Position numbers and translations under genes: made by a program. The notes beneath the pieces were generated by a model, which was not told the DNA's origin, searched no databases, and saw nothing but the letters and a program-made list of their open reading frames with translations. Shown in pieces: positions 15,845 to 51,245 of a stretch of 64,000 nt of DNA. Origin of the DNA: an uncultured Verrucomicrobiota bacterium (GTDB taxonomy: Bacteria; Verrucomicrobiota; Kiritimatiellia; JAAZAB01). Position 1 is the stretch's first letter; each line of letters begins with the position of its first letter. The stretch is from NCBI GenBank assembly GCA_964475165.1, contig CAYYVN010000009.1, positions 9,348 through 73,347 of the forward strand, written 5' to 3'.

Positions 15845-16069
15845 GATCGCTTACCGCCTTTAATGGTTGCCGACGGTTTTATCCGCCAGAAAATCCTAAA
15901 AGTCAAACAGGAAAATAGCGCTCTGGCTATCAGGCGCCGTTGGTTGGCGGCGCATAATCTTAGGATGATCAGGGCTGTGCAGCTTCTTGGCATGATCCCT
16001 GCTCTATAAGATATAGGGAGCTCCCTGCTCAGCCGCTGGTGTTGCTCTTTGAAAAATGTCTCAAAAAAA

Positions 16070-16203
16070 ATACCCTGCCTGGTGCGTGCTGCGCGCCTCA
16101 CGACTCATCCCCATTACGATTAACGAGAGGCTCTCTGAGCCTGATCTTGTTATCAGGGAAACGAGCCCGGCGTAGCCACGGCTTGGTGGGGTATTTTTTT
16201 TTT
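16070..16203 (+). ncRNA. Candidate structured small RNA in a gene-free interval. Its identity is unknown.
   Basis: A ~130-nt GC-rich block is flanked on the plus strand by A8 (16063-16070) and T10 (16194-16203). The 5' end UACCCUGCC pairs with the 3' end GGUGGGGUA in a 9-bp closing helix immediately followed by the U-run. Internal hairpins sit at 16129-16143 and 16138-16155. A weak promoter TTGCTC-N17-AAAAAT lies just upstream. The flanks are symmetric, so the minus strand cannot be excluded. Confidence 0.3.
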
Positions 16204-16464
16204 GGACAGCCAAGCGCCCTTTTGTCTATCAATTTATAAAAAATGCGAAGAATATGGGCTACTGCTTGGTGGATTGCAGCTGAATCTTGATTGACGAGTG
16301 TTATTGGCCGCTTATTATTTCCGGCCAGCCCTTGATCAAGGATCCAGTTTGTTGGCCAACGGCAGGGCTGAGCGCGCGGCCGCGCGGTGTTGAGACGGGT
16401 GCCGCGCCCTTGCTTGCTGAGAGCAGTCCAGTACAATCTGGCTGGTAAGGAAGTTGAGCAGACG

Positions 16465-18207
16465 ATGTTCGAGCCTTTGGATAAGGATCAGATGCGCAAA
16501 GCCGGCTGCGGGGCTGGTGTGCCGCGCGGCTGGCTGATCTCGGCCTGGGTGCTGCTGGGGTTGGCTTACGCGCTTATGCTCTTTCAGCGCGGGCTGATCG
16601 ACCCGGATGAGGGACGCTATGCTGAGATTGCTCGCGAAATGGTGGCTGACGGCGCCTGGCAGGAAATGCGTTTGCTGGGCTATCGCTATTATGAAAAGCC
16701 GCCCTTCACTTACTGGGTGACGGCTCTGGCCATCGCCGGCTGGGGGGCGCACGATTGGGCGGTGCGCGTTCCCCTGCTAGGCAACCTTATCTTGATCTTG
16801 GGATTGTTTTATGGCTTGGCTCGGCGGCATTGGTCGCCGGCCGTCGCGCGCATTGCTCTGCTGGTCTTGGCAAGCCTGGCGGTGTTTTTTGTGGGCTCAT
16901 CTCTGCTGCTGACCGATGGTTTTCTGGTCTGGTGGATTAGCCTGACTTGCGTTTTGCTCTATCGCGCATTTCAGCCGGCTATCCCGGCTGGTCAACAACG
17001 CCTCTGGCTATCCGGGGCCGCCTGTGCGGCGGCCTTGGGATTTTTAACCAAGGGTGCGGTAGCGGTGGTATTGCCGGCGCTGATTATCCTGGTCTGGTTA
17101 TTAGAGGAGGGGCGCGCGCGGGCTTTGATGACTCCAGCGCTGCTCCTGGCGTTGCTCATCCTGGCGGGGCTCTTAAGCCCTTCACTCCTGTGGATTGAGC
17201 GCCATAATCCTGGCTTCTGGCAGGCTTTTGTTTTCGATGAGCATATCGGGCGCTTCCTGGGGAGCCGTATAACGCAATTGCATGCTGAGCCCAGCTGGTT
17301 TTTCCTGGCTCTCTTGCCGCTCTTGCTTTTGCCTTGGAGCCTCTTTGGAGTGCGCGCTCTGCGCTGGAGTTTTTGGCAGCGCGCTTGGCAGACGGATCCG
17401 CTCACGCGTTTTCTGTTGATCTGGAGCTTGGTGGTACTGATCTTTTTTTCGCTGAGCACCGGTAAGCTGATTTCCTATATCCTGCCGGCCGTTCCTCCGC
17501 TGGGGCTGCTGCTGGGACGCTGGGGGCTTGCTCAACCGCGGACTGCTGAAGGGCTCGATAACCGGCTGTGGTATCTGGGCTGGTTTGGCGTATGGCTGAT
17601 GGTCTTGGGGGTTATCCTGCTGCTGCTATTGAGCGCCTTGCACCTGGCGCCGGCCTGGTTGCACCCCATCAAACTTTCCGGCTTGGCCTGGCTGGCGCCT
17701 TTGGGGCTGGCTATATTGCTGGTGCTGTGGCGGCGGGCCTGGCGGCACGGCGGCGGCGCCTTCTTGCTGAGCGCCACGCTCTTCAGCACGGCCGCCCTGC
17801 TGCTTTCGCCGCTGGCCGGCCGCGACTTTCATCTTTTATTGCACACCAATTCCGCCAATGTTTATCAAGCTTTGGCCGCTGAACTGCAGGCCGAGGATCA
17901 GGTGGTGGTGTTTGGGAAATATCGGCCCTCGCTGCCCTTTTATCTGCGGCGTCCGGTGTATTTTTGCTATGGCATGAATGAGCTGCGTCCGGGTATTCTG
18001 CGTGAGCGTCAGCGCCCCGGATATCTCTGGACGCGCCAGGCTATTCACCACTTAATCAGCCTCACGCCCGGGCGCGTCTATGCTCTGGTGGATAGTCAGG
18101 ATTATCAGCCTAAATTTCTGCCCTTGCAATTGAACTTTCGAGCGACAGCTTTGGCGGGCGATGCTCACACCTTGATCCTGGAATTGCTGAGCGCGCCGGC
18201 GGATTAA
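16465..18207 (+). CDS. GT39-family (ArnT/PMT-like) membrane glycosyltransferase.
   Basis: Polytopic membrane protein. ...DEGRYAEIAREMVADGAWQEMRLLGYRYYEKPPFTYWVTALAIAGWG... matches the ArnT/PMT_2 periplasmic-loop signature. ATG at 16465 with AAGGAAG upstream. The track ORF starts at 16387. Confidence 0.65.
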   Translation: MFEPLDKDQMRKAGCGAGVPRGWLISAWVLLGLAYALMLFQRGLIDPDEGRYAEIAREMVADGAWQEMRLLGYRYYEKPPFTYWVTALAIAGWGAHDWAVRVPLLGNLILILGLFYGLARRHWSPAVARIALLVLASLAVFFVGSSLLLTDGFLVWWISLTCVLLYRAFQPAIPAGQQRLWLSGAACAAALGFLTKGAVAVVLPALIILVWLLEEGRARALMTPALLLALLILAGLLSPSLLWIERHNPGFWQAFVFDEHIGRFLGSRITQLHAEPSWFFLALLPLLLLPWSLFGVRALRWSFWQRAWQTDPLTRFLLIWSLVVLIFFSLSTGKLISYILPAVPPLGLLLGRWGLAQPRTAEGLDNRLWYLGWFGVWLMVLGVILLLLLSALHLAPAWLHPIKLSGLAWLAPLGLAILLVLWRRAWRHGGGAFLLSATLFSTAALLLSPLAGRDFHLLLHTNSANVYQALAAELQAEDQVVVFGKYRPSLPFYLRRPVYFCYGMNELRPGILRERQRPGYLWTRQAIHHLISLTPGRVYALVDSQDYQPKFLPLQLNFRATALAGDAHTLILELLSAPAD

Positions 18208-18269
18208 GCTTGCCTTTGGGTTAGAGATGTGTTTCCATCCGCATGCAGTGGGCCGGAGAAGCTGATTTC

Positions 18270-19124
18270 ATGAATAATCCTTATCATAAATTTGTGGCTG
18301 ACTACGCCCGCCTCTTGAAAGAGGCCGAGAGTTATCCTGTGGGCCATGGGGCCATTGAGCCGCGCGGCACTCTGCCGGCGGATGCCCCTGCGGTTTTAAT
18401 CTTTGCGCCGCATCCGGATGATGAATGCTTGATTGGCGCCTTGCCCCTGCGCCTCTTACGCGAGATGAAGATGAAGGTGATCGATGTGGCTGTGACCCTG
18501 GGGAGCCGCAAGGATCGTCAGACCGAGCGCTGGGACGAATTACGCCAGGCTTGCGCCTATCTGGGGTTCGGCGTGCTGACCGTCGGCGAGCGCGGTTTGG
18601 ATAAAATCAATCCGACCACTCGTTCCCAAAGCCCGGAGATCTGGCAGGCAGCGGTGCAGCAGGTGGCCGGTATCTTGGAGCAATATCAGCCGCGCGTGAT
18701 TTTTGCTCCGCATGCCAAGGATTGGCACAGCACGCATATTGGCACGCATTATCTGGTTCAGGACGCCCTCAAGCTTATGGATCCGACCTTTTGTTGTTGG
18801 GTTTGCGAAACGGAATTTTGGGCGCCGCTATCCAATCCTAACTTGATGGTGGAAGTGAGCGTGGCCGATTTGGCCGATCTGGTGGCGGCCATTTCTTTTC
18901 ATGTGGGGGAGGTGCGCCGCAACCCTTATCACTTGCGTCTGCCGGCCTGGATGCAGGATAATGTGCGCCGCGGCGGCGAGCTGGTGGGCGGCCAGGGCGC
19001 CGATGTCCCGGCCTTTGGGTTCGCCACCCTCTATCGGCTTAAGAAATGGGCCAAACGCCGCTCCACTGAGACCGGCAGCAAGTTAGTTTCTTGTAACGAC
19101 TCTCTCGCCGAACTCTTCGGCTGA
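18270..19124 (+). CDS. PIG-L/LmbE-family N-acetylglucosaminyl deacetylase.
   Basis: LIFAPHPDDECLIG... is the zinc-binding HPDDE signature of LmbE/PIG-L. Start at 18270, 12 nt after GGAG. Confidence 0.65.
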   Translation: MNNPYHKFVADYARLLKEAESYPVGHGAIEPRGTLPADAPAVLIFAPHPDDECLIGALPLRLLREMKMKVIDVAVTLGSRKDRQTERWDELRQACAYLGFGVLTVGERGLDKINPTTRSQSPEIWQAAVQQVAGILEQYQPRVIFAPHAKDWHSTHIGTHYLVQDALKLMDPTFCCWVCETEFWAPLSNPNLMVEVSVADLADLVAAISFHVGEVRRNPYHLRLPAWMQDNVRRGGELVGGQGADVPAFGFATLYRLKKWAKRRSTETGSKLVSCNDSLAELFG

Positions 19125-19135
19125 TAGCGGTTACT

Positions 19136-20470
19136 GTGAGTCGCTTTTGCGGAGAATCAGCCGTGGTTGTGCCTGGCTCTGCTTATCGCCTTTTCCTGAT
19201 CTATTTTGTTCCGCTGGCCCTGCAAAGCATGGCCCAGAGCTTAACCTATCCTCTGGTGGCTATGGTGGCCTCGCGCGGTCTGGGCGGGCCGGTGAATATG
19301 GCCGGACTGGCTCAGGCCCATGGAGTTTTTGGCGTGCTCTGGACGCTGAGCATGGGGCTTTTAACTGCCGGCATGGTCTTTGGCCGCTCGCGTGAAGGTT
19401 TTGCCCGTTGTCGCCGCATCAATAATGGGCTGACGCTGGCGATGGTCTTCATCAGTTTATGCCTGATGATGCCGCCGGTGGCCCATCGTCTTTTTCATGC
19501 CTTGCTGGGGCTGCCCCCTTCGATCGAACGCCCGGCCACGCTGGCCTTCATCGCTTCCCTGCCACTCAATGTGCTCTTTTTTCTGCGCACGCCTTATCAG
19601 ATCTTGTTGTTTACCCATAATGCCACCGCCAAGGCTTTTCTGGCCAGCTTAGCGCGTATCGTCTTGACGCTGCTGCTTTCGCCTTTGTTCTGTTGGCTGC
19701 ATGCGGTGGGGCCGGTCTGGGCGACGGTTTGCATGACCATCGGCGTGCTTTTGGAATTATATCTGACGCGTCGTTTTGCCAGGCCCTTTCTCAAGCAACT
19801 GCCAGAGGAGGGGCCGCCGCCGCGCTATACGGAGATCCTGGTCTTTGCCTTGATTCTATCGGTGGGCGCCTTATTTCTTTCCTTATCGGGATTTCTGATG
19901 GGCGCTTTCATCGCGCGCGCGCCTGATCCCGAGCAGGTCTTGCCGGTCTTCTATCTCGTTTTGGGTGTGGCCAATCCGGTGGCCGGTGGCGCCATGCGTA
20001 TTCAAGCTCTGACCCTGACCTATTATGGGCGCTCGCAGCGCGCCAATCAGCAGCTGGTTCGCTTTACGGGTTGGACGGGGCTGGTGTTGGGAGTTTTACC
20101 GCTGCTGCTGTTGGTGCCGGGCTTGAAGGAATGGTATTATATCACCCTCCAAAAATTAAGCGCGGCGGATATGCCATTAGTGCGCGCGGCCTCTTGGGCC
20201 TTGGTGCTTTTTCCGTTGACGGCGGCTTGGCGGGCTTATAGTGAGGGGCAGGCCGCCTGGCTGAAGAAACCCATCATCGTTTTGGCTGGGCAGGCCGTTT
20301 ATCTTTCGGTGGCGGTGGTGGCGGCTTTTTTCGCCTTACATCTGGGTATGTCCGGTCATCTCCTGGGAGCATTTGCCCTGGCGCTGGCCAATGCGGCTGC
20401 CGCGGCCATGGTGCTCTTCGCCATCCGTTGGGAACGGCGCGATGATCTGCCGCCTCCGGCGCCCGGTTAA
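19136..20470 (+). CDS. Polytopic membrane protein, MOP-superfamily-like (MATE/Wzx-type transporter or flippase).
   Basis: 444 aa, about 12 hydrophobic segments arranged in two halves, short loops. GTG start 12 nt after the LmbE stop, so likely co-transcribed. The family call rests on topology only. Confidence 0.35.
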   Translation: MSRFCGESAVVVPGSAYRLFLIYFVPLALQSMAQSLTYPLVAMVASRGLGGPVNMAGLAQAHGVFGVLWTLSMGLLTAGMVFGRSREGFARCRRINNGLTLAMVFISLCLMMPPVAHRLFHALLGLPPSIERPATLAFIASLPLNVLFFLRTPYQILLFTHNATAKAFLASLARIVLTLLLSPLFCWLHAVGPVWATVCMTIGVLLELYLTRRFARPFLKQLPEEGPPPRYTEILVFALILSVGALFLSLSGFLMGAFIARAPDPEQVLPVFYLVLGVANPVAGGAMRIQALTLTYYGRSQRANQQLVRFTGWTGLVLGVLPLLLLVPGLKEWYYITLQKLSAADMPLVRAASWALVLFPLTAAWRAYSEGQAAWLKKPIIVLAGQAVYLSVAVVAAFFALHLGMSGHLLGAFALALANAAAAAMVLFAIRWERRDDLPPPAPG

Positions 20471-20474
20471 AGCA

Positions 20475-21125
20475 TCAGGGCGCCGTTGGTGGCGCTTGTT
20501 GGCGGAGGTATGCTTTGCGGCGGTTGATCGTTTGGGCGTCGCTGAAGCCACTGCCATCGGAATCGGCGCGCTGGGGATCAGTGTGCCAGAGCATGATCTC
20601 ATCGTAGTCAGAGACGCCATCGCCATCGCTATCGTTGGCCACCGTCAGGGTCACCTGGATGGCCCCGCTTTGCCCGAGGGGCAGAGAGGCATTATTGGCG
20701 AAGAGCAACGCGCCGCTGCCGCGCGCCACCACAGTGGTTTCGCGGCCCACCCGGATGACCTGGGCGCTGAGGTAATCATTGGTATGATAATGCACCTTCA
20801 TCAGCAAGGCGTTGGCGGGCGCCTCGATTCCCAGATGACCCTTGATGATTTGCGGGTTGCCCTCAGGTCCATAATCGTTAAAGGAATCATTCCACTGCCC
20901 CTCGGCTCGACAATGAATGATCTGGCCGCGGCGCGCCTGCAGGCCGCTATTTTGCCAGCCGGCTTGAGCGGCCTGCACAAAGAAGACCACTTCCATGGGC
21001 GGCTGCGGCTGAGTGGGCAGGCTCTGGCAGCCGCATAGCCCCAGGCCGAGCAGACAACTGAGGAGCGCCAAGCGGCCCCGGGCGCGCTTTTGCTGGGCGG
21101 ATAAATTATCCATTTTTACGCTCAA
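20475..21125 (-). CDS. Putative lipoprotein with calcium-binding aspartate-rich repeats.
   Basis: Signal/lipobox-like N-terminus (RLALLSCLLGLGLCGC). The C-terminus has ...NDSDGDGVSDYDE...DPQRADSDGSGFSD, thrombospondin-type-3-like Ca-binding motifs. Confidence 0.45.
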   Translation of the reverse strand: MSVKMDNLSAQQKRARGRLALLSCLLGLGLCGCQSLPTQPQPPMEVVFFVQAAQAGWQNSGLQARRGQIIHCRAEGQWNDSFNDYGPEGNPQIIKGHLGIEAPANALLMKVHYHTNDYLSAQVIRVGRETTVVARGSGALLFANNASLPLGQSGAIQVTLTVANDSDGDGVSDYDEIMLWHTDPQRADSDGSGFSDAQTINRRKAYLRQQAPPTAP

Positions 21126-22179
21126 AATCCCGCATGAAGTCGGCCAGGACTTCCGCGCCCTCCATGGGGAAGGCGTTATAGATGGAGGCGCGAATGCCGC
21201 CCACTGAACGATGGCCCTTGAGGCCTTTGAGCCCTTGCTGGGTGGCTTCCTGGATGAAGCGCGCTTCCAGACTCTCGCTGGGTAGACGGAAGGTAATATT
21301 CATGTCGGAACGATAGTCCTTGGCCGCCGTGCCGCGATAGAAGGCGCCGCTATCGATCACCGCATAGATTTTGCGCGCCTTCTCCACATTCCTTTGATAG
21401 ACCTTCGGGAGCCCTGTCTTGAGGAGCAGGCGTGAGGTCAGCATCATAAGATAAATGCTGAAACAAGGCGGAGTGTTGTAGAGCGAGTTTTCCTTGATGA
21501 AGGTTTTATATTTCAAGATGGCCGGGATCTTTTCCGCGGCGCGCTCCGCCAGGCTGCGCTGGATCACCACCAGGGCCAATCCGGCCGGCCCCAGGTTTTT
21601 CTGGGCGCCCGCATAAAGCAGAGCGAATTGATTGATATCTATGGGCCGCGAAAGGATATCCGAGGACATATCCGCCACTAGGGGAGCCTCCGTTGCGGGA
21701 AAGGTTTTCCATTGGGCGCCGGAAATCGTTTCATTGGAGGTGATATGCACATAGGCCGCACCCGCGGTCAGTTTCAATTCGGCGGCGGCGGGCATGCGCG
21801 CGGGTAAGTCCTTACTGCAATCGGCGGCCACATTAACCTTGCCGATGACTTGCGCTTCCTTGATGGCCTTGCCGGCCCAGGCCCCCGAATTAACATAGTC
21901 CGCCGTCTGACCGGCACCCAGAAAGTTCAAGGGTAACATGGCGAATTGCAGACTGGCCCCGCCCGCGATGAAGAGCACCTCATAATCAGCCGAGCAGTTG
22001 AGCAGTTTTTTGTAATTGGCCACCGCTTCTGAGTGTACGGCATCATATTCTTTGGCACGATGACTGCTCTCCAGCAGCGAGATGCCCGAGCCCTGGAAAT
22101 CCAGCAGTTCGGCTTGGGCTTCGGCGAGCACTTCCTGCGGTAAAATGGCTGGTCCGGCATTAAAATTATAGATACGCGT
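21106..22179 (-). CDS. serC: Phosphoserine aminotransferase.
   Basis: MTRIYNFNAGPAILPQEVL...; class-V aminotransferase typical of SerC. Start at 22179. The track ORF runs to 22275. Confidence 0.85.
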   Translation of the reverse strand, partial: TRIYNFNAGPAILPQEVLAEAQAELLDFQGSGISLLESSHRAKEYDAVHSEAVANYKKLLNCSADYEVLFIAGGASLQFAMLPLNFLGAGQTADYVNSGAWAGKAIKEAQVIGKVNVAADCSKDLPARMPAAAELKLTAGAAYVHITSNETISGAQWKTFPATEAPLVADMSSDILSRPIDINQFALLYAGAQKNLGPAGLALVVIQRSLAERAAEKIPAILKYKTFIKENSLYNTPPCFSIYLMMLTSRLLLKTGLPKVYQRNVEKARKIYAVIDSGAFYRGTAAKDYRSDMNITFRLPSESLEARFIQEATQQGLKGLKGHRSVGGIRASIYNAFPMEGAEVLADFMRDFERKNG

Positions 22180-22358
22180 CATCTCAAAACCTCCTCTTGC
22201 TATTGGATAAAAGACCCACAGCTTCTGCTGTAGTCTGGGATAGGCAATATAGAATGGTTGGCGCCGGCCTGGCAAGCATAATAGAGGGCACGCTCCATCC
22301 CCCGGCTAGGCTTTTCCGGGGTGCCGCCAGCAGAAACTTAAGCCCCCGAGGCATTATC

Positions 22359-22405: not shown

Positions 22406-22478
22406 GCCAACGTAGCTCAGCTGGTAGAGCAGCGCATTCGTAATGCGCGGGTCGGCGGTTCGATCCCGCCCGTTGGCT
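22406..22478 (+). tRNA. tRNA-Thr, anticodon CGU.
   Basis: Acceptor GCCAACG/CGTTGGC, D-arm AGCTCAGCTGGTAGAGC, anticodon stem-loop GCGCA-TTCGTAA-TGCGC, T-arm GGCGG-TTCGATC-CCGCC. Confidence 0.85.
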
Positions 22479-22583
22479 TGGGGGTGCGTGGCGCTCCATG
22501 CCTGGCTCGATCAGGCCCGGTGGCGAAAGATGGGTGCGCCGAAAAATAGGAAACCGGTGCTGCCTGGCCGGAGCGGATGTTTT

Positions 22584-24542
22584 ATGAAATCTCGAAAGCC
22601 TAAAGCCCGAACCAAAGCCTCGCCTAAACGCCAATCGCCCGCTCGTTCCGCAGCCGCTGGGCGGTCGAAAAAAACCACCCGCGCGCCTTCGCGCCCCGCC
22701 AAGCCGGCCGCCTCACGCGCCGCTAAGCCGGCCGCCTCACGCGCCGTCAAGCCAGCCGCCTCGCGCGCCGCCAAGCCAGCCGCCTCGCGCGCCGCCAAGC
22801 CAGCCGCTTCGCGCGCCGTTAAGGCCCCCGCGCCGCGGGCGACGAAACGCTCGGAGCGGCATACGCCCTTTAAGGATCTCGATAATATCCACCCCCAGAT
22901 TCGCGTTAAGATGAGCAGCGAGGAGCTCCAGAGTAAAATGAAGGAGCTGATGAAGCTGGCGCGCGATCAGGGCTACCTGACCGATCAGGATATCCACGAA
23001 TGCCTGCCCACCAACTTGATCGATCCGGACGAGATCGAAGGTTTCATCCTGCTCCTGCGCGGCATGGATATTGAAGTGATCGATGCGGCCAGCGTGGAAC
23101 AGTTCAAGAAACAAGCCGAGAAGGATGCGCGCGCTGAGCAGGCTAAATCCTTTGAGGTCATGGATGATCCCATCCGGACCTACCTGCATCAGATGGGGCA
23201 GGTGCCCTTGTTGACGCGCAGCCAGGAGGTGGAAATATGCAAGCGCATTGAAGAGGCCGAAATCAATTCGCGCGCCATCTTCAAGCAGTTTGGCTTCTCA
23301 CTGGAAGCATACCTAAACCTGGTTGAGCGTCTCGAAAGCAATCGCGAACGCTTCGATCGGATTATTATGGATAAGCATGCTGAGGGTCGCAATAAGTATG
23401 TGCGCGCCTTGGCCAAGCAGAAGAAGAAAGTGCGCGATACTCACAAAAAAATGAGCGCGATCTTTCGCCGCATCTGCCAATGCCGCGGCAATGAAAAAAA
23501 GATCCAGCGCCATCAAAAACATTATCTGAAGGCGCAGCAGCAATATTCCCGCCAATTGGATGGTTTCTATTTTAAGCAGAAGGCCATCGAGGATTTCGTA
23601 GTCGTGGCCGATCATTATTACCAGCGTTTTGCGGCCGAGACAGCTCTCATTAAGCGTTTGAGCTCGGGGCGCAGCGCCAAAAACCCGGCCAACCAGGCTA
23701 AACTGCGTGCCGCGCGGCGGCGGCTGCGCGAGCTGGAAGCCGCCTTGCTGATGGATGGGGCCACCTTCGAAACGCAGTATCGCGAGTTGAAATCCTGGTT
23801 GAAAAAGGGCCAGAAGGCGCGCACCGAAATGGCCGAAGCCAACCTGCGCTTAGTCATCAGTATCGTTAAAAAATATATGAACCGTGGCCTGATGTTTCTG
23901 GATCTCATTCAGGAGGGCAATACGGGGCTGATGCGCGCGGTGGAAAAATTTGAATACAAGCGCGGCTATAAGTTCAGCACCTATGCCACCTGGTGGATTC
24001 GCCAGGCGGCCACGCGGGCCATCGCCGATCAGGCGCGGACCATTCGCATCCCCGTGCACATGATCGAAAACATCAATAAGTTGGTGCGCGTGCAAAAACT
24101 GCTCTTGCAGGATTTAGGACGAGAACCCACTCCGGAAGAGGTGGCCAACGAAGTGGAAATGCCCGTCGAACGCGTCAAGGAAATCTTCAAGATGTCGCAA
24201 CAGCCGATTTCCTTGCAGGCCACCGTCGGCGATAGCGATGATGCCTATTACGGCGATTTTATCGAAGATAAATCAGCCGAAAATCCTTCGGAAATGACGG
24301 CCTATAGCCTGCTCAGGGAACGGCTCCAGGAGGTTATCAAAACCCTTTCGGAGCGTGAGCAGAAGGTGCTCCGCTTGCGTTTCGGATTGGATGATGGTTG
24401 CCCACGCACCCTGGAAGAAGTGGGCTCCATGTTCACCGTCACCCGCGAGCGTATTCGCCAAATCGAAGCCAAGGCGCTGCGCAAGCTGCGCCATCCCACC
24501 CGCTTGCAGAAACTGGAAGGGTTTCTGGAAGTTAAAGATTAA
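22584..24542 (+). CDS. rpoD: RNA polymerase sigma-70 factor RpoD with a basic AKPAASRA-repeat N-terminal extension.
   Basis: Regions 2-4 are clear ([34 protein letters not shown]; [28 protein letters not shown]). ATG at 22584 with GGAG upstream. The track ORF starts at 22443, inside the tRNA, which is not plausible. Confidence 0.85.
22698..22817 (+). repeat. Five 24-bp in-frame tandem repeats encoding (AKPAASRA)x5 within rpoD.
   Basis: The unit gcN-aag-ccR-gcc-gcc-tcR-cgc-gcc is repeated five times with silent or conservative changes. Confidence 0.8.
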
Positions 24543-26769: not shown

Positions 26770-27639
26770 ATGAGCACTATTGGCATTATCGGTTATGGAT
26801 ATGTGGGCCGCTCGGTGGAATATGGTTTTGTGGAGCATGACCGTCAACGCGGGCAGGAGCCCAAGCATCGCGCTCTGGTCTATGATAAATATAAACCTCG
26901 CGATCCACTGGCCCAAGTGCTGGAAGAAAGCGAAATCATCTTCGCTTGCCTGCCCACGCCCTATGATGAAGAAAAACTGCATATCGATCTGACGATCTAT
27001 GATCAATGCATGGCCGAAATCTGCCCCCAAATCGCCGGCCGTGGCAAGATCATGGTGATCAAATCCACCGTGGCCCCCGGCACTACGCGTCGTTACGCCA
27101 GCCTTTATCCCCAGGTGCCCTTTGCCATGAATCCTGAATTTCTAACCGAAGCCAATTACCTGCAGGATTTCGTGCAGACCGATCGCATCGTGATCGGGGC
27201 CGATAACGACTGGGTCTCGCAGAAGATCATTGATCTCTATCGTTCCTGTTTCCCGACTACCATCATCATGCCCATGAGCTCGGTTGCGGCTGAAATCGTC
27301 AAATATCAAGCCAATATCATGCTGGCCACCAAGGTTGCTTTGGCCAATATCTTCTATGACCTCTGCCAGGCCGAAGGCGTCAAATACGACGATGTTAAAA
27401 AGGCGGTGGCCCTCGATAAGCGTATTGGTACCAGTCATATGGATGTCACTACGGACCGCGGCTTCGGCGGCAAATGCTTTCCCAAGGATCTGGGCGCCTT
27501 GATCGGGCGCTGCCACGAGCTCAAGGTGGATTGCAAGGTGCTCGAGGAAGTCCACGCCTATAACCTGCGCATCAGGAAAGTGAGAGACTGGCACGAAATC
27601 GCCGGCGCCACCGTCGGCGGGCGTATCTATGCTGAATAG
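26770..27639 (+). CDS. Nucleotide-sugar (UDP-glucose/GDP-mannose) dehydrogenase-family protein, short form.
   Basis: Rossmann GIIGYGYVG and the catalytic-Cys motif GFGGKCFPKD are present. At 289 aa it is about 100-150 aa shorter than canonical UDPGDH and appears to lack the C-terminal UDP-binding domain. Confidence 0.6.
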   Translation: MSTIGIIGYGYVGRSVEYGFVEHDRQRGQEPKHRALVYDKYKPRDPLAQVLEESEIIFACLPTPYDEEKLHIDLTIYDQCMAEICPQIAGRGKIMVIKSTVAPGTTRRYASLYPQVPFAMNPEFLTEANYLQDFVQTDRIVIGADNDWVSQKIIDLYRSCFPTTIIMPMSSVAAEIVKYQANIMLATKVALANIFYDLCQAEGVKYDDVKKAVALDKRIGTSHMDVTTDRGFGGKCFPKDLGALIGRCHELKVDCKVLEEVHAYNLRIRKVRDWHEIAGATVGGRIYAE

Positions 27640-35027: not shown

Positions 35028-35126
35028 GTCTGCTGATCGGCACAGTTTCGGCTGCTGGCGAGAGACTAACCTATGGCTCAGCAAAGCTCAACCCTTGATA
35101 GTTGCCTTGCCGAGGGGGCATCTGCT

Positions 35127-35750
35127 ATGCTGCGCCGCATGAAGACCAAGGCGCCGTTATCCATTGCCGTGTTGGGATCGGGGCAGGGCAGTAACTTCCA
35201 GGCTATTGCCGATGCCATTCAGGAGCAATCCTTGGTGGCGCGCATTGTTTGTGTGCTGGCCGATAATCCGGCGGCCTTCATTCTGGAACGGGCCCGCCGC
35301 TTGGGCGTGCCGGCTGAATATATTGATCCGGCGCCCTATAAAAACAAGCTGGCCGGCGCCGCCGAATTGAAGACCATCGAGCGTTTGCGTTATTACCGGG
35401 CGGAATTGATTGTGCTGGCCGGGTTCATGCGCATCATCAAGGCGCATTTATTGGCGGCTTATCCGGCGCGCATCATCAACATTCATCCCTCGCTCTTACC
35501 GGCCTTTCCCGGCTTGCATTCCTGGAAACAGGCCCTGGATTATGGGGTGAAAGTATCGGGATGCACCGTGCATTTCGTGGATGCCGGTATGGATAGCGGC
35601 CCGATCATCCTGCAAAGGACGGTGCCGGTGCTGCCCGATGATACGCCCGAGACTTTACATGCGCGCATCCAGGAGCAGGAACATCAAGCCTATCCCGAAG
35701 CTATTCGTCAGCTCATCGCCAACTATAATTCTCCGGATCATAAGCGATGA
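35127..35750 (+). CDS. purN: Phosphoribosylglycinamide formyltransferase.
   Basis: ...IAVLGSGQGSNFQAI..., formyltransferase core. ATG at 35127 after GAGGGGG. Confidence 0.8.
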   Translation: MLRRMKTKAPLSIAVLGSGQGSNFQAIADAIQEQSLVARIVCVLADNPAAFILERARRLGVPAEYIDPAPYKNKLAGAAELKTIERLRYYRAELIVLAGFMRIIKAHLLAAYPARIINIHPSLLPAFPGLHSWKQALDYGVKVSGCTVHFVDAGMDSGPIILQRTVPVLPDDTPETLHARIQEQEHQAYPEAIRQLIANYNSPDHKR

Positions 35751-40107: not shown

Positions 40108-40156
40108 CCCTAACATCTGGTGGATCAGTTTGCAAAAATCTATTGCGGGAGGTCGC

Positions 40157-43100
40157 ATGAAAACGCATCCTTGGGTTATAATAATCGGTGCTTCCCTGCT
40201 GCTGAGCGCTCTGGCGCCGGGCGCCCTTAGTGATTCTGACTCAGTCATACCGGCCGCCCGCGCCGCTCAACTTCAAAAGTTGCAGCAGGATCTGCAGGCC
40301 GCCGATCAGCTGCTGGATAGCATCAGGGCGCAACAGCAAAGCCTGGCGCAGCTGCCCCGCGAAGTGCAAGAGGCTCAGCGCCAGGAACGTCAGACCCAGC
40401 GCCAGGAGCAGACGCAGATCCGCGAGCTCCAGACCGCAGAGCGTGAGCTCTCCGGATTAAAAACCCGCCTGACCGCTCTCGAAAAACAAATCATCCGCGC
40501 CGGCGCCGCTCAAGAGAAGCTCGCCGCCCTCAACGCCGCAGAGCAGCAGCTCCAGCGCCAGCAGCAGGCCGCCGCCGCGCGCCTTGAAACCCTGACCGCT
40601 CAGCATCAGGCCGCTCAGCAGGAGCGCGCCGCCCTGCAAACCCAGCTGCAGGAGGCCGCTCAGCGTCTGGCGGCAGCGCAAAAACTGGCTCCGGAACTCA
40701 AACGGCTCCAGAGGGATTTGCAGCGCCGCCAGCAAGAATTGGCGGGGATCACTAATCAGGCTCAGCGCGCCGCCGCGGAGCATGCTCTCATCCGCCAAGA
40801 AATCGAAAGCTTCCAAAGCCGTCTGGCAGAAATCGAACGCGCGGCCAGTACCAATGTTGCGCAAGAGACCTTAAAGCAATTACAAGCCGCGCTGGCGGCC
40901 GCTCAGCAGGAGCGCACCGCCGCCACGGCCGAGCTGCAAACCGCCACCCGCGCCGGCGCCGCCGCCGCCCAAGAGGTTGCCCAGCTCAAGCGCCGCCTGG
41001 CCGCGGCCAGCAAGCGCTTACAGCAAGCCTCTCAACCATCCGGGGCTGTGGAAAAGCTGCAGGCTGAATTGGACCGAGAACAAAAATTACGCGCCGATTC
41101 CGATGCCGCTCTGCAACGCCATCGCGAGGCACGCCACGCGGCCCAGCAGGAAATCGCCGCGCTTGCTGCCCAGATCGCCGAAGCTCAGGCCCGTGAAAAA
41201 GATGTGCAGCGTCAGATTCAAGCCACGGCCCAAGTGCGCACCGCGCTGGAACGGGAGCAAAAATTACAGGTGGCCTCCATGCAGGCCGCCGAGCAGGCCA
41301 CTCGCGCCGCCGAACAAACCGAACGCGAGCTGCTCCAAGCTAAAACCGCTTGGGATAGCCTCTCCTCGCGCCTGGCCGAAACTCATCCGCAACTGCAAGC
41401 CTACCAACGCCTGCAGGAGGAATTGCAAACGGTGCAAAGGCAGCGCCAGGCGGCGCTTGAGCAGGCGCGCCAGGAAGAACAATCATCGCAAGCGGCGGCG
41501 GAGCTGCTGCGCAAACTGCAGCGCCAAATCGCCGCTGCTGAAAAACAGGCCGCGCGCCAACAAGCCACCAAGCTCGCACCGCTCCAGGCGCAGCTGGAGA
41601 AAGAACAGCAGGCTCTGGCGCAGGCCACTGCCGCCGGGCAGCGTCAGACCGCCGCCCGCGCCGCGACCACCCAGGAAGTCGCCGCTCTCGAGCAGCGCCT
41701 GGTCTTTCTGAGCCAACCAGCCGCCGAGGAGGCCAGTCCTTTGGAGCTCGCTTTGCAAGGGCAGCTGCAAGAGGCGCAGCAAGCCCGCGCGGCGGCCGAA
41801 GCCCAGATTCTCCAGGAACGCCAGGCTTATCAGGAGGCCCAAGCAAAATTGAGCTCCTTGCGGCGCGCCTGCCGGGAAGCGGCCCGCCAATCGGAGCAGA
41901 GCAAGAAACATGCGGCCCAGCTGGCTAAACTACAAGCTGATCTAAACCGGCAACAAGAGCTGCAGCGCGCCGCCGCCGCCCAAGCCGCCGAGCAGGCCCA
42001 GCGGCGTCTGGCCGCGGAGCAGGAATTGAGCGCGCAGCAAGCTCAGCTCCAAAGTGTTTCCCAAGCGCTCTCCGCGGCCCCCGCCGCGGCTGCCAGCGCG
42101 CAAGTGCAAGCCGAATTGGCTGCGACTATCCGCCTCAAAGAGGCCGCCCACAAACAAGCGCTCAGTGATGCCGCGGCCACTCAGGTTATCCGTAAATCCC
42201 TGGCGAAAATCCAGACGCAGTTGCAGGCCCAACAAGCGGCCGAGGCGACCCTCCAGCAAAAAATGGAGCGGCAGGCTGAATTGCAAGGCCAGTTAGCGGA
42301 AGCTTCGCAAGAGCTCCGGACGGCTGAAGCCCAAGGGCAGGCCGCGGCCGCCCTGCGGACGGCCGCCGATGAAGAATTGGTGGGCTTACAAGCCCAGCTG
42401 GCCCTGCTGGATAAACAGGTAGCCGAAAAAGAGCGGGCCAATCAACAGCTCATCTCGCTCCAAGCCGAGTTGCAAAAAACCCGCGCGCAAACTCAAGCGC
42501 TGCTGGCGGCCCCGCCAGCGGCGGCGGCCAGGCAAAAGATCGTGGATCTACAGGCCCAACTGCAAGCGGCTGAAAAACGCCTGGCGGATCAAGAGGAACA
42601 AAGCCAGGCTTTGCAAGCGCTGCGCGAACAATTGGCCGGTGAAAAAGAACAGCTTCTGGCCGCCCAAGAGCAATCCCGCGACCGGGATAAAGAGCAGCGG
42701 CTTTTGGAAAAACAAGCCGCCAGCTTGCAGGCCGCCCTCCAGCAGGCCGAAAGCCGTCTGACAAAATGGGCGCGGCGCCTGCCTCCCAGCGCGGCCCTTA
42801 AACAGGAACTCGATCAAGTAAAACGAGAGCAACAAGAGACCCTCGCCGCCGCTCAGGCCGCGCGCGGCGAGCAAACTCGTTTGCAAAGCGAATTGACCTC
42901 TCTGACCAGCCGAACGCAGTTGCTGGCTGATTCCCTGGCTGTGATGCAACGCGAGCTGGCCGCGCGCCCGGCCACAGCTTTGGCGCGGGCGTCCCAGCAG
43001 TCCGCCCCGGTCCCAGCGATCTCCAGGCCTCTCCCGGCCTCATCAAGTTCAACCGCGCTCGCCGGCGGGCCGCATAGCACCGCCGCGCACTTATTGGCGG

Positions 43101-43504
43101 CCGAACAAAAGATCCTGGCCGCCGCTCGCAGCCCGGCAGAGCTCGAGAGCGCTTCTTCGGCTGCCGAAATTGCGCCTGCTCAGGAGGCCGCGGCCGCGCG
43201 CCATTATCACGCCGGCATTCGTCAGTGGGATGCCGGTAATCTGGAAGGGGCCATCGCCGAGTTTGAGCAGACCATTCGCCTGAACCCGGATGCGGCCAGC
43301 GCCTATTATAATCTGGGCTTGGCTTATCTGCGTAAGGAACAGATCGGCACCGCTTGCGATTATGCCTATCAAGCCGGTCGCATTTATTTAAAAGATAACA
43401 ATGTGGCCCAAGCCATGCGCATGATCGCTTTTATTAAAAGCATGGATGCCTCCAGCGGTCTGATTTCGGAATTAAGGCAGGCCATCTCCGCGCAGCAACA
43501 ATAA
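40157..43504 (+). CDS. Giant secreted coiled-coil protein (~1,115 aa) with a C-terminal TPR-like domain.
   Basis: Signal peptide MKTHPWVIIIGASLLLSALAPGALS. Roughly 1,000 aa of Q/A/E/L/R-rich heptad-like sequence follows. It ends with a TPR-like module (AIAEFEQTIRLNPDAASAYYNLGLAYL). No Walker motifs, so it is not SMC. Confidence 0.6.
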   Translation: MKTHPWVIIIGASLLLSALAPGALSDSDSVIPAARAAQLQKLQQDLQAADQLLDSIRAQQQSLAQLPREVQEAQRQERQTQRQEQTQIRELQTAERELSGLKTRLTALEKQIIRAGAAQEKLAALNAAEQQLQRQQQAAAARLETLTAQHQAAQQERAALQTQLQEAAQRLAAAQKLAPELKRLQRDLQRRQQELAGITNQAQRAAAEHALIRQEIESFQSRLAEIERAASTNVAQETLKQLQAALAAAQQERTAATAELQTATRAGAAAAQEVAQLKRRLAAASKRLQQASQPSGAVEKLQAELDREQKLRADSDAALQRHREARHAAQQEIAALAAQIAEAQAREKDVQRQIQATAQVRTALEREQKLQVASMQAAEQATRAAEQTERELLQAKTAWDSLSSRLAETHPQLQAYQRLQEELQTVQRQRQAALEQARQEEQSSQAAAELLRKLQRQIAAAEKQAARQQATKLAPLQAQLEKEQQALAQATAAGQRQTAARAATTQEVAALEQRLVFLSQPAAEEASPLELALQGQLQEAQQARAAAEAQILQERQAYQEAQAKLSSLRRACREAARQSEQSKKHAAQLAKLQADLNRQQELQRAAAAQAAEQAQRRLAAEQELSAQQAQLQSVSQALSAAPAAAASAQVQAELAATIRLKEAAHKQALSDAAATQVIRKSLAKIQTQLQAQQAAEATLQQKMERQAELQGQLAEASQELRTAEAQGQAAAALRTAADEELVGLQAQLALLDKQVAEKERANQQLISLQAELQKTRAQTQALLAAPPAAAARQKIVDLQAQLQAAEKRLADQEEQSQALQALREQLAGEKEQLLAAQEQSRDRDKEQRLLEKQAASLQAALQQAESRLTKWARRLPPSAALKQELDQVKREQQETLAAAQAARGEQTRLQSELTSLTSRTQLLADSLAVMQRELAARPATALARASQQSAPVPAISRPLPASSSSTALAGGPHSTAAHLLAAEQKILAAARSPAELESASSAAEIAPAQEAAAARHYHAGIRQWDAGNLEGAIAEFEQTIRLNPDAASAYYNLGLAYLRKEQIGTACDYAYQAGRIYLKDNNVAQAMRMIAFIKSMDASSGLISELRQAISAQQQ

Positions 43505-51184: not shown

Positions 51185-51245
51185 TATTTCCGGATGGCCC
51201 TGCGCCGCTTGAGGCCGGCGCGTGGCGGCCGGGAGGGGGGGGAGC

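What the first reader, a model, noticed from the sequence alone, without database searches (positions are those of the whole stretch)
16465..20470. ArnT-like GT39 transferase + PIG-L/LmbE deacetylase + MATE/Wzx-like transporter. Possible lipid-A/glycolipid aminosugar-modification module (Lgm/Arn-like).
Three co-directional, tightly spaced genes. A GT39 enzyme (the family that transfers sugars from undecaprenyl-phosphate donors to lipid A or proteins in the periplasm). A PIG-L-type de-N-acetylase (the family that turns GlcNAc-lipid into GlcN-lipid in GPI and mycothiol pathways). A flippase-like polytopic transporter. This mirrors the logic of lipid-A glucosamine (Lgm) and L-Ara4N (Arn) modification systems. 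Those make a polyprenyl-P-GlcNAc, de-acetylate it, flip it and transfer the cationic sugar to lipid A. No ArnC-like GT2 is adjacent, so the donor-synthesis step would be encoded elsewhere or be different. The third gene's family rests on topology only.
Basis: inference. Interest (0 to 1): 0.55.

Follow-up and report, generated by a model that had tools for sequence, protein, structure and literature searches.

The report
Adjacent envelope-sugar genes, no proven module
Three neighbouring genes (an ArnT-type lipid-A sugar transferase, a sugar de-acetylase and a membrane exporter) are real, but in related bacteria they mostly sit apart and in other company, so they are probably ordinary neighbours and not a new lipid-A modification pathway.

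Summary
There are three co-directional, tightly spaced genes on the + strand. g1 (16465-18207) is an ArnT-family GT-C transferase. g2 (18270-19124) is a PIG-L/LmbE zinc deacetylase. g3 (19163-20470) is a 12-TM MOP-superfamily transporter.

The family calls are right at superfamily level. g1 groups with ArnT (CAZy GT83 from my own knowledge), not with protein O-mannosyltransferases. g2 is neither BshB nor MshB.

The proposed Lgm/Arn-like module fails its own co-conservation test.
- Of 80 genomes with a g2 ortholog, none has an ArnT-like gene within 10 kb. 44 have a ROK-like kinase and/or NagB, which points to amino-sugar catabolism.
- Of 79 distant g3 homologs, none has g1 or g2 nearby. 55 of the 63 with enough upstream sequence follow murB.
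- g1 orthologs elsewhere sit beside a PMT_2 paralog, and in one case beside near-equivalog ArnB and ArnC.
- One Lentisphaerae relative keeps g2-TSP3-serC without g3.

All three genes are adjacent in only two lineages.

Most likely this is a junction of conserved gene blocks (synteny junction): an Ara4N-type lipid A/LPS transferase whose donor pathway lies elsewhere, a cytoplasmic N-acetylhexosamine deacetylase, and an ANKH/MATE-like exporter. A new PIG-L-dependent lipid-A hexosamine route is not excluded (about 0.12). Interest is low to moderate.

The parts
16465..18207 (+). g1: ArnT-family GT-C glycosyltransferase that uses a polyprenyl-phosphate-sugar donor, 580 aa
   Evidence: Pfam PMT_2/PMT/Arnt_C. 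NCBIfam ArnT model 205 bits, below the 567-bit equivalog cutoff. PDB 5EZM 3e-35. The residues that by my recollection of the 5EZM study are functional (D55, E84, K85, D158, H267, R270, Y345, after a 3-residue offset I inferred) align with identical residues and are invariant in 17 homologs as D48, E77, K78, D151, H260, R263, Y338.
18270..19124 (+). g2: cytoplasmic PIG-L/LmbE zinc deacetylase, 284 aa, from a highly conserved subfamily found mainly in Verrucomicrobiota, Kiritimatiellia and Lentisphaerae
   Evidence: Pfam PIG-L 53.7 bits. Invariant H57, D59, D60 and H165 in ORF numbering, matching the LmbE zinc and base motifs. AlphaFold model has the LmbE fold; the best PDB matches are archaeal diacetylchitobiose deacetylases, then MshB. 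Orthologs are 50-71% identical across 80 genomes.
19163..20470 (+). g3: 12-TM MOP-superfamily transporter of an uncharacterised family, 435 aa, with weak ANKH/MatE affinity
   Evidence: At least 592 homologs; every source name listed among the best 120 is 'hypothetical' or 'uncharacterized membrane protein'. AlphaFold pLDDT 90.4. Foldseek matches to MATE, MurJ and WzxE. Pfam ANKH hits in 7 of 22 homologs (best 1e-6) and MatE in 2 of 22, but none for the window protein.
16291..16318 (+). Promoter-like site upstream of g1 (TTGACG-16-TATTAT, 10 of 12 matches)
   Evidence: This is a consensus match only, and the number of sites found does not exceed the shuffled expectation. No convincing terminator lies between g1, g2 and g3.
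20475..22275 (-). Context only: a gene for a TSP3-repeat protein and serC, convergent with g3. Together with g2 (and g3 where present) they form the conserved synteny block.
   Evidence: Pfam TSP3_bac and Aminotran_5. NCBIfam SerC 470 bits. The block recurs in L001, L007, L087, L093, L176 and L177.

Best explanation
The three genes are functional but belong to different processes. They are neighbours because two conserved synteny blocks meet here: [bamA...dnaB...pth...prs-ispE | g1] and [g2-(g3)-TSP3-serC].

g1 is an ArnT-type inner-membrane transferase. It moves a sugar, most likely L-Ara4N or a similar amino sugar, from a polyprenyl-phosphate donor onto lipid A or the LPS core in the periplasm. 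Its donor pathway (ArnB/ArnC-like) would be encoded elsewhere in the genome.

g2 is a soluble zinc de-N-acetylase acting on a free or phosphorylated N-acetylhexosamine, or a small GlcNAc glycoside. It would feed the amine sugar into catabolism or salvage (kinase, then NagB).

g3 is an ANKH/MATE-like MOP exporter of unknown substrate, probably anionic.

The genes may be co-transcribed in this organism.

Shown: the family and fold assignments, the conserved catalytic residues, and the gene-neighbourhood statistics. Inferred: the substrates, and the absence of a functional link between the genes.
For: (1) g1
- It aligns with ArnT at the positions I recall as catalytic and undecaprenyl-phosphate-binding, and those residues are invariant in 17 homologs.
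- Its 58%-identical ortholog in L173 has the same bamA...ispE upstream block but is followed by a PMT_2 paralog, not by g2/g3.
- In L172 it also precedes a PMT_2 paralog.
- In L174 a 49%-identical homolog sits next to ArnB-like (596 bits, cutoff 631) and ArnC-like (482 bits, cutoff 529) genes.

(2) g2
- 80 ortholog loci with up to 10 kb of flank on each side: 0 carry ArnT.
- A ROK-like gene is present in 32 (26 adjacent). NagB is present in 15 (all adjacent; TIGR00502 250 bits, above cutoff). Either one is present in 44 of 80.
- L178 places g2 among GH42 and GH123 genes and a LacI regulator.
- L177 keeps g2-TSP3-serC without g3.
- The nearest structures are soluble diacetylchitobiose deacetylases.
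- There is a weak hit to the LmbE part of the 653-aa NagB-like model NF002557.

(3) g3
- 79 distant homologs have neither g1 nor g2 nearby.
- murB lies directly upstream in 55 of the 63 loci with at least 1 kb of upstream sequence.
- The only Pfam affinities are ANKH and MatE, not MurJ, Wzx or Polysacc_synt.

(4) No GT2, ArnB, ArnC or ArnD-like gene occurs in the 64-kb window.
Against: - The three genes are co-directional with gaps of only 62 and 38 nt and no convincing terminator between them, so an operon is plausible.
- The same three-gene order recurs in a second lineage (L087/L088; identities 55%, 68% and 60%) with a different upstream flank. This is more than trivial inheritance of one arrangement.
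- g2-g3 adjacency with gaps of 12-30 nt holds in at least six lineages.
- All three families handle GlcNAc-type or lipid-linked sugars, so a shared pathway is chemically coherent.
- The ROK-like neighbour of g2 orthologs matches Pfam ROK only weakly (20.6 bits, below cutoff) and has no NCBIfam hit.
- The many metagenomic g3 loci are not phylogenetically independent.
Confidence: 0.6

Rival explanations
1. g1-g2-g3 form a lineage-specific lipid A or glycolipid hexosamine-modification pathway. A GT2 encoded elsewhere makes polyprenyl-P-GlcNAc. g2 de-N-acetylates it on the cytoplasmic face. g3 flips polyprenyl-P-GlcN. g1 transfers GlcN to a lipid A phosphate.
For: - Tight co-directional spacing.
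- The three-gene order recurs in L087/L088 with a different flank.
- g1 keeps the ArnT catalytic residues.
- g3 has the fold shared by the lipid-linked-sugar flippases MurJ and WzxE.
- PIG-L enzymes can act on lipid-linked GlcNAc (GPI pathway, from my own knowledge).
- A PIG-L deacetylase (DnpA, PA5002) is listed next to LPS-related genes (wapH, wapO) in Pseudomonas aeruginosa (PMC13552734).
Against: - 0 of 80 g2-ortholog loci have an ArnT-like gene.
- 0 of 79 distant g3 loci have g1 or g2.
- Four sampled relatives have g2 and g3 adjacent with no g1 detected next to them, though one has too little upstream sequence to judge.
- g2 stays in place without g3 in L177.
- g2 orthologs are 50-70% identical to copies that sit with NagB and a ROK-like gene, which argues for one conserved soluble substrate.
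- g1 homologs associate with ArnB/ArnC, that is an Ara4N donor that needs no GlcNAc deacetylase.
- No GT2 is present in the window.
- The known pathways use a different deacetylase: NaxD, which is of the YdjC type by my recollection.
Confidence: 0.12
2. g2 and g3 form a functional pair in this clade, and g1 is unrelated. For example, g3 transports a GlcNAc-containing or related anionic metabolite or precursor that g2 produces or consumes.
For: g2-g3 adjacency with gaps of 12-38 nt in the window, L087, L001 and L007 (219 nt in L176), and also in L094. These span 60-70% protein identity. g3's distant homologs link to murB, an enzyme of UDP-GlcNAc-derived metabolism.
Against: - L177 keeps g2-TSP3-serC without g3.
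- In L093 the two genes are 5.3 kb apart.
- L175 has g3 without g2.
- 77 of 80 g2 genome loci lack g3 and 79 distant g3 loci lack g2.
- The adjacency can be explained by inherited synteny within one family-level clade.
Confidence: 0.15
3. g3 is a flippase for a lipid-linked glycan: lipid II, or the polyprenyl-P-sugar donor of g1. It therefore serves envelope assembly together with g1, while g2 is unrelated.
For: MOP fold with TM-score 0.72-0.73 to MurJ and 0.66 to WzxE. murB lies directly upstream in 55 of 63 distant loci. Several arginines are invariant (R142, R165, R252, R279, R357), which would suit an anionic head group.
Against: - The best fold matches are MATE exporters.
- The only Pfam affinities are ANKH and MatE.
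- A family profile finds no MurJ or Wzx in the PDB sequences.
- g3 has 12 TM helices; by my recollection MurJ has 14.
- g1 orthologs in L172-L174 have no g3 nearby.
Confidence: 0.1

Closest known systems
ArnT (PmrK) of the arnBCADTEF L-Ara4N lipid A modification system; structure 5EZM/5F15 from Cupriavidus metallidurans
   Same: g1 aligns over about 500 residues (3e-35). It keeps the residues I recall as catalytic and undecaprenyl-phosphate-binding (D55, E84, K85, D158, H267, R270, Y345) and has a weak Arnt_C domain. A 49%-identical homolog lies beside near-equivalog ArnB and ArnC.
   Different: It scores 205 bits against the NCBIfam ArnT equivalog cutoff of 567. H265 of the recalled zinc site is Asp in g1. 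No arnB, arnC, arnA, arnD, arnE or arnF is adjacent or anywhere in the 64-kb window. The acceptor and the sugar are unknown.
Hexosamine modification of lipid A: Bordetella LgmA/B/C(D), and NaxD (Francisella, Acinetobacter)
   Same: NaxD deacetylates undecaprenyl-P-linked GalNAc (PMC10927774). That the final transfer is done by an ArnT-like enzyme (LgmB, FlmK) is from my own knowledge.
   Different: Here the deacetylase is PIG-L/LmbE, not NaxD, which is of the YdjC type by my recollection. No GT2 donor synthase is adjacent. The candidate flippase is a MOP-family protein. The three genes are not co-conserved.
Archaeal diacetylchitobiose deacetylase (Dac; PDB 3WE7, 3WL4, 8BGO), and NagB-like proteins carrying an LmbE domain (NCBIfam NF002557)
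   Same: These are the best sequence-profile and fold matches of g2 in the PDB. Like Dac, g2 orthologs sit beside a sugar-kinase-like gene and a GlcN-6-P deaminase. g2 has a weak hit to positions 499-557 of the 653-aa NF002557 model.
   Different: Identity is only 18-20% and the PDB profile E-values are about 1e-3. g2 has a distinctive, highly conserved C-terminal segment (EVxRNPYHLRLPAWMQDNVRRGGE) that is modelled poorly (pLDDT below 50 for residues 237-258). The substrate is untested.
MshB and BshB (mycothiol and bacillithiol GlcNAc-conjugate deacetylases)
   Same: Same LmbE fold and zinc motif.
   Different: Scores are 34 bits (BshB1) and 13.5 bits (MshB) against cutoffs of 182 and 224. No thiol-pathway genes are nearby.
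MOP superfamily transporters: MATE (PfMATE 4MLB, NtMATE2 7DQK), ANKH, MurJ (6NC9), WzxE (9G9O)
   Same: g3 has the 12-TM two-lobe fold, with TM-score 0.73-0.76 to MATE, about 0.72 to MurJ and 0.66 to WzxE. Some homologs weakly match Pfam ANKH and MatE.
   Different: The window protein passes no Pfam or NCBIfam family threshold. It has 12 TM helices; MurJ has 14 by my recollection. The family's conserved partner is murB, an association I do not recall for these families. It is an uncharacterised family in which the source names listed are 'hypothetical' or 'uncharacterized membrane protein'.
Pseudomonas aeruginosa DnpA (PA5002), a PIG-L deacetylase listed beside LPS-related genes
   Same: It is a precedent for a PIG-L enzyme encoded next to LPS-related genes (PMC13552734).
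   Different: Its relationship to g2 was not tested. In that study the deletion kept the colistin MIC at 1280 ug/mL.

Membership tests
ArnT family (GT-C; Pfam PMT_2/PMT + Arnt_C; CAZy GT83) | Full-length homology to a solved ArnT, covering both the membrane domain and the periplasmic C-terminal domain | tested here: met
   5EZM 3e-35, query residues 39-543 against chain residues 23-520. PMT_2 60 bits, above cutoff. Arnt_C 26.1 bits against a cutoff of 26.5, so marginal.
ArnT family (GT-C; Pfam PMT_2/PMT + Arnt_C; CAZy GT83) | Catalytic Asp residues and the undecaprenyl-phosphate-binding Lys, Arg and Tyr (D55, D158, K85, R270, Y345 of the Cupriavidus enzyme; the residue list is from my own knowledge of the 5EZM study) | tested here: met
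   All five align with identical residues and are invariant in 17 homologs: D48, D151, K78, R263, Y338.
ArnT family (GT-C; Pfam PMT_2/PMT + Arnt_C; CAZy GT83) | Score above the NCBIfam equivalog cutoff for lipid IV(A) 4-amino-4-deoxy-L-arabinosyltransferase | tested here: not met
   204.9 bits against a cutoff of 567. g1 is a family member but not a demonstrated functional equivalog.
ArnT family (GT-C; Pfam PMT_2/PMT + Arnt_C; CAZy GT83) | Genetic linkage to the donor pathway (arnB, arnC, arnA, arnD) | tested here: not met
   None in the 64-kb window. A 49%-identical homolog in L174 is linked to ArnB-like and ArnC-like genes.
ArnT family (GT-C; Pfam PMT_2/PMT + Arnt_C; CAZy GT83) | Transfer of L-Ara4N to a lipid A phosphate | not testable with these tools
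   Needs lipid A mass spectrometry or an enzyme assay.
Protein O-mannosyltransferase (GT39) | Closer to Pmt-type enzymes than to ArnT | tested here: not met
   The only PDB sequence hit at E <= 0.01 is ArnT. The only NCBIfam hit is ArnT.
Lgm/NaxD-type lipid A hexosamine modification module | An adjacent GT2 that makes the polyprenyl-P-HexNAc donor | tested here: not met
   No GT2 in the window, nor in L087/L088 next to the three genes.
Lgm/NaxD-type lipid A hexosamine modification module | A NaxD-type deacetylase (YdjC type by my recollection) | tested here: not met
   g2 is PIG-L/LmbE.
Lgm/NaxD-type lipid A hexosamine modification module | Co-conservation of the transferase, deacetylase and flippase genes across relatives | tested here: not met
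   All three are adjacent in 2 lineages only. 0 of 80 g2 loci have ArnT. 0 of 79 distant g3 loci have g1 or g2. g1 orthologs in L172-L174 lack g2 and g3.
PIG-L/LmbE deacetylase family (PF02585) | Pfam score above the gathering cutoff, and the LmbE fold | tested here: met
   53.7 bits against 28.2. Foldseek matches to Dac, MshB, BC1534 and TT1542 at E 1e-9 to 1e-8.
PIG-L/LmbE deacetylase family (PF02585) | Zinc ligands and general base (the H-P-D-D motif plus the last His of the HxDH motif) | tested here: met
   H57, D59, D60 and H165 are invariant in 17 orthologs. H165 aligns with the last His of the TT1542 HPDH motif.
BshB / MshB (low-molecular-weight thiol biosynthesis) | Score above the equivalog cutoffs | tested here: not met
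   BshB1 34.2 bits against 182.5. MshB 13.5 against 224. BshB2 13.1 against 195.
MOP superfamily (MATE / MurJ / Wzx / ANKH) | 12-TM (or more) two-lobe MOP fold | tested here: met
   Model pLDDT 90.4. TM-score 0.73-0.76 to MATE structures at E 4e-8.
MOP superfamily (MATE / MurJ / Wzx / ANKH) | Membership of a named subfamily (MatE, MurJ, Polysacc_synt/Wzx, ANKH) by profile score | tested here: not met
   No Pfam or NCBIfam hit for the window protein. Only sub-threshold ANKH hits (7 of 22 homologs) and MatE hits (2 of 22). The family profile finds nothing among the PDB sequences.
MOP superfamily (MATE / MurJ / Wzx / ANKH) | Flipping of a lipid-linked sugar | not testable with these tools
   Fold alone does not separate exporters from flippases. 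The murB linkage in distant homologs is only suggestive.

The most novel reading that the evidence does not exclude
In this Lentisphaerae/Kiritimatiellia lineage the three genes form a previously undescribed route for decorating lipid A or LPS with a cationic hexosamine. A PIG-L/LmbE enzyme would replace the NaxD- or ArnD-type deacetylase by acting on polyprenyl-P-GlcNAc. An ANKH/MATE-like MOP protein would replace ArnE/F as the flippase. An ArnT-type enzyme would do the transfer.
Probability: 0.12. Interest if true: 0.6.

Novelty: new member of a known kind. Interest (0 to 1): 0.25.

Why it matters
If the module were real, it would add a third enzymatic solution to making polyprenyl-P-aminosugar donors for lipid A. 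That would bear on cationic-peptide resistance and envelope charge in PVC bacteria (the Planctomycetota-Verrucomicrobiota-Chlamydiota group), which are poorly studied.

As it stands, the main value is as a caution. Chemically coherent adjacency of three sugar-handling genes did not survive a neighbourhood test across about 170 related loci.

Two by-products may deserve follow-up more than the original claim:
- A very conserved LmbE deacetylase that travels with a ROK-like gene and NagB in Verrucomicrobiota. This could be a NagA-independent GlcNAc route.
- An uncharacterised MOP transporter family that follows murB in Desulfobacterales-type genomes.

Tried and rejected
- PMT/GT39 identity for g1. 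Rejected: the only hits are to ArnT.
- BshB/MshB identity for g2. Rejected: scores are far below the cutoffs.
- Canonical MurJ, Wzx or MatE membership for g3. No profile support.
- A donor-pathway gene (GT2, ArnB, ArnC, ArnA, ArnD) elsewhere in the window. None found. The formyltransferase at 35073-35750 is a 225-aa single-domain Formyl_trans_N protein, which I take to be PurN-like and not ArnA. The UDP-sugar dehydrogenase-like ORF at 26770-27639 is short and isolated.
- Rfam search of the window and of the g1 upstream region for a riboswitch or leader. Only four tRNAs were found.
- Literature searches for a PIG-L + ArnT pathway, for an LmbE/ROK/NagB route in Verrucomicrobia or Akkermansia, and for a new lipid II flippase family. 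Nothing specific to these families was found.
- The NaxD primary paper (PMC3841722) is not held. The YdjC classification of NaxD therefore rests on my own knowledge.

Full report
**Observation**

The window carries three + strand ORFs at 16387/16465-18207, 18243/18270-19124 and 19136/19163-20470. Alignment with homologs fixes the likely starts:
- g1: ATG 16465, 580 aa, identical to P0241 and to independent gene calls in L089-L091.
- g2: ATG 18270, 284 aa.
- g3: GTG 19163, 435 aa.

The gaps between the genes are 62 and 38 nt. A consensus scan finds a promoter-like site at 16291-16318 and no convincing terminator between the genes. Site counts do not exceed the shuffled expectation.

The flanks are housekeeping genes.
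- Upstream, on the - strand: ispE-like kinase, prs, L25, pth, ssb, L9, dnaB, bamA, skp, lpxD.
- Downstream: a TSP3-repeat protein and serC on the - strand, then tRNA-Thr and rpoD.

Near-identical cluster members (at least 90% identity) of g1 and g3 are deposited from a metagenome-assembled genome labelled Lentisphaerae bacterium.

**What each gene is**

g1 matches Pfam PMT_2, PMT and (marginally) Arnt_C.
- Its only NCBIfam hit is the ArnT model, at 205 bits against an equivalog cutoff of 567.
- Its only PDB sequence hit is Cupriavidus ArnT 5EZM, at 3e-35 over about 500 residues.
- In that alignment the positions I recall as functional (D55, E84, K85, D158, H267, R270, Y345, after a 3-residue numbering offset that I inferred) carry identical residues. 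They are invariant in an alignment of 17 homologs as D48, E77, K78, D151, H260, R263 and Y338. H265 is Asp.
- g1 is therefore an ArnT-type GT-C enzyme (CAZy GT83 from my own knowledge), not a GT39 protein mannosyltransferase.

g2 is a PIG-L/LmbE protein, at 53.7 bits against a cutoff of 28.2.
- H57, D59, D60 and H165 are invariant.
- It is far below the BshB1, BshB2 and MshB cutoffs.
- Its family profile and its AlphaFold model (pLDDT 77.8) find archaeal diacetylchitobiose deacetylases first, then MshB and BshB-like proteins.

g3 has no Pfam, NCBIfam or PDB sequence match.
- A high-confidence model (pLDDT 90.4, pTM 0.88) has the 12-TM MOP fold. TM-scores are 0.73-0.76 to MATE exporters, about 0.72 to MurJ and 0.66 to WzxE.
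- Among 22 family members, 7 weakly match Pfam ANKH and 2 match MatE. None matches MurJ or Wzx models.

I collected loci around relatives of each gene.

(a) A GTDB genome scan with a g2 alignment returned 80 loci with up to 10 kb of flank on each side. They are mostly Verrucomicrobiota, Kiritimatiellia and Lentisphaerae, with scattered other phyla, at 49-71% identity.
- tblastn found an ArnT-like gene in 0 of 80, and g3 in only one, L007.
- The recurrent neighbours are a roughly 470-aa ROK-like protein (in 32 loci, adjacent in 26; Pfam ROK only 20.6 bits) and NagB (in 15 loci, all adjacent; TIGR00502 250 bits, above cutoff). At least one of the two is present in 44 of 80 loci.
- Two further contexts point the same way. 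L178 places g2 among GH42 and GH123 genes and a LacI regulator. L177 (Lentisphaerae) keeps g2-TSP3-serC with no g3 in between.

(b) A metagenome scan with a g3 alignment returned 80 loci. With L003, L005 and L175 this gives 79 distant homologs at 45-57% identity.
- None has g1 or g2 nearby.
- murB (Pfam MurB_C + FAD_binding_4) lies directly upstream on the same strand in 55 of the 63 loci that have at least 1 kb of upstream sequence.

(c) g1 orthologs:
- L173 (58% identity) has the same bamA...prs-ispE block upstream as the window, but g1 is followed by a PMT_2 paralog.
- L172 comes from the same sample as L001. There g1 is followed by a PMT_2 paralog, an RmlC-like gene and an MFS transporter.
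- L174 (Kiritimatiellae, 49% identity) has the homolog divergent from a PMT_2 paralog plus ArnB-like (596 bits, cutoff 631) and ArnC-like (482 bits, cutoff 529) genes.

(d) Within the closest clade (g3 at least 60% identical):
- g1-g2-g3 are adjacent only in the window species (L089-L092) and in L087/L088, where the upstream flank differs.
- g2-g3 occur with no g1 detected next to them in L001/L002, L007, L094 and L176. L094 has only about 1 kb of upstream sequence.
- In L093 they are 5.3 kb apart.

**Interpretation**

Each gene has its own conserved company, and the three sets differ:
- g1 goes with PMT_2 paralogs and Arn-type donor genes.
- g2 goes with amino-sugar catabolic genes and with the TSP3-serC block.
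- g3 goes with murB.

The window arrangement reads as a junction of the [bamA...ispE | g1] block with the [g2-(g3)-TSP3-serC] block.

I therefore take the most likely functions to be these:
- g1 is an ArnT-type lipid A/LPS transferase of an Ara4N-like sugar, with its donor pathway encoded elsewhere.
- g2 is a cytoplasmic N-acetylhexosamine, or GlcNAc-glycoside or GlcNAc-phosphate, deacetylase for catabolism or salvage.
- g3 is an ANKH/MATE-like exporter with an unknown substrate, probably anionic. Invariant arginines are listed.

The substrates are inferred. The family assignments and the neighbourhood statistics are shown.

Some evidence points the other way: the tight spacing, the recurrence of the trio in L087/L088, and the stable g2-g3 pair in six lineages.

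**Comparison with known systems**

Lipid A amino-sugar modification is known in two forms relevant here:
- the Arn pathway (ArnB, C, A, D, T, E, F; from my own knowledge);
- hexosamine pathways. Bordetella LgmA/B/C are required for GlcN addition (PMC4993483). NaxD deacetylates undecaprenyl-P-linked GalNAc (PMC10927774).

A PIG-L deacetylase or a MOP flippase has not been described in these pathways as far as I know or could find. Pseudomonas aeruginosa does list a PIG-L protein, DnpA, beside LPS-related genes (PMC13552734).

The window locus lacks the GT2 donor synthase and fails co-conservation. I therefore do not file it as an Lgm- or Arn-type module.

**Verdict**

The genes are real and the superfamily calls are correct. 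The proposed pathway is not supported. The finding amounts to new members of known families in an ordinary neighbourhood.

**Limits**
- Many metagenomic loci are related to each other, so the counts are not independent events.
- Neighbour ORFs were called with a simple script.
- The complete genome could not be searched for the Arn donor genes.

Noticed in passing
window 16071-16203 (+), in the 620-bp divergent intergenic region between ispE and g1: A conserved element of about 135 nt. It is roughly 85% identical to L173:7480-7615, while the rest of the spacer hardly aligns. It folds as a long imperfect hairpin (-58.6 kcal/mol, z = -4.06) and ends in GGGGUA + U10. 4 of 36 consensus pairs show compensatory double changes between the two sequences. 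There is no Rfam hit even at E <= 1. It is a candidate unannotated small RNA.
   Followed up: partly
L096-L171 (distant homologs of window 19163-20470): The uncharacterised MOP transporter family of g3 sits directly downstream of murB on the same strand in 55 of the 63 loci with enough upstream sequence. An MFS gene often follows (26 loci). This suggests a link to cell-wall precursor metabolism, possibly a flippase or exporter role. The loci are not phylogenetically independent.
   Followed up: partly
L007-L086 (orthologs of window 18270-19124): The 285-aa LmbE deacetylase is 50-70% identical across Verrucomicrobiota, Kiritimatiellia and Lentisphaerae. Scattered copies occur in assemblies labelled cyanobacteria, Acidobacteriota, Myxococcales, Paracoccus and Limnohabitans; some labels of metagenome-assembled genomes may reflect binning errors. 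It frequently forms a cluster of ROK-like gene, LmbE and NagB, which may be a NagA-independent GlcNAc catabolic route.
   Followed up: partly
L172:2461-4182, L173:9687-11420, L174:5881-7698: g1 orthologs are usually accompanied by a second, more divergent PMT_2 paralog (73-89 bits to the ArnT model for the L173 and L174 copies). The window has no such paralog within 64 kb.
   Followed up: partly
window 22406-22478 and 22443-24542: tRNA-Thr(CGT) overlaps the 5' end of the longest rpoD ORF. Sigma-70 region 1.1 starts only at residue 163 of that ORF, so the real rpoD start must lie downstream of 22478.
   Followed up: no
window 26770-27639 (+): A short (289-aa) protein of the UDP-glucose/GDP-mannose dehydrogenase family. 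It has an intact N-terminal GxGxxG motif and the central domain, but no hit to the family's C-terminal domain. Function unclear.
   Followed up: no
window 40130-43504 (+): A 1124-aa ORF in the most GC-rich (0.64) and most AT-skewed (+0.29) part of the window. Its only Pfam match is a single C-terminal TPR repeat. It lies just after tRNA-Arg.
   Followed up: no
window 51222-52838 (+): An Amidohydro_2 domain and a GNAT acetyltransferase domain are fused in one 538-aa ORF. It sits in a sugar-catabolism neighbourhood: DeoR regulator, class-III aminotransferase, Gfo/Idh/MocA, AraA-like and an FGGY kinase.
   Followed up: no
window 16001-20000: Strong negative AT skew (-0.32 to -0.26) over g1-g3. 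This is consistent with T-rich codons of hydrophobic membrane proteins on the + strand, not with foreign origin. GC content (0.58) matches the rest of the window.
   Followed up: no
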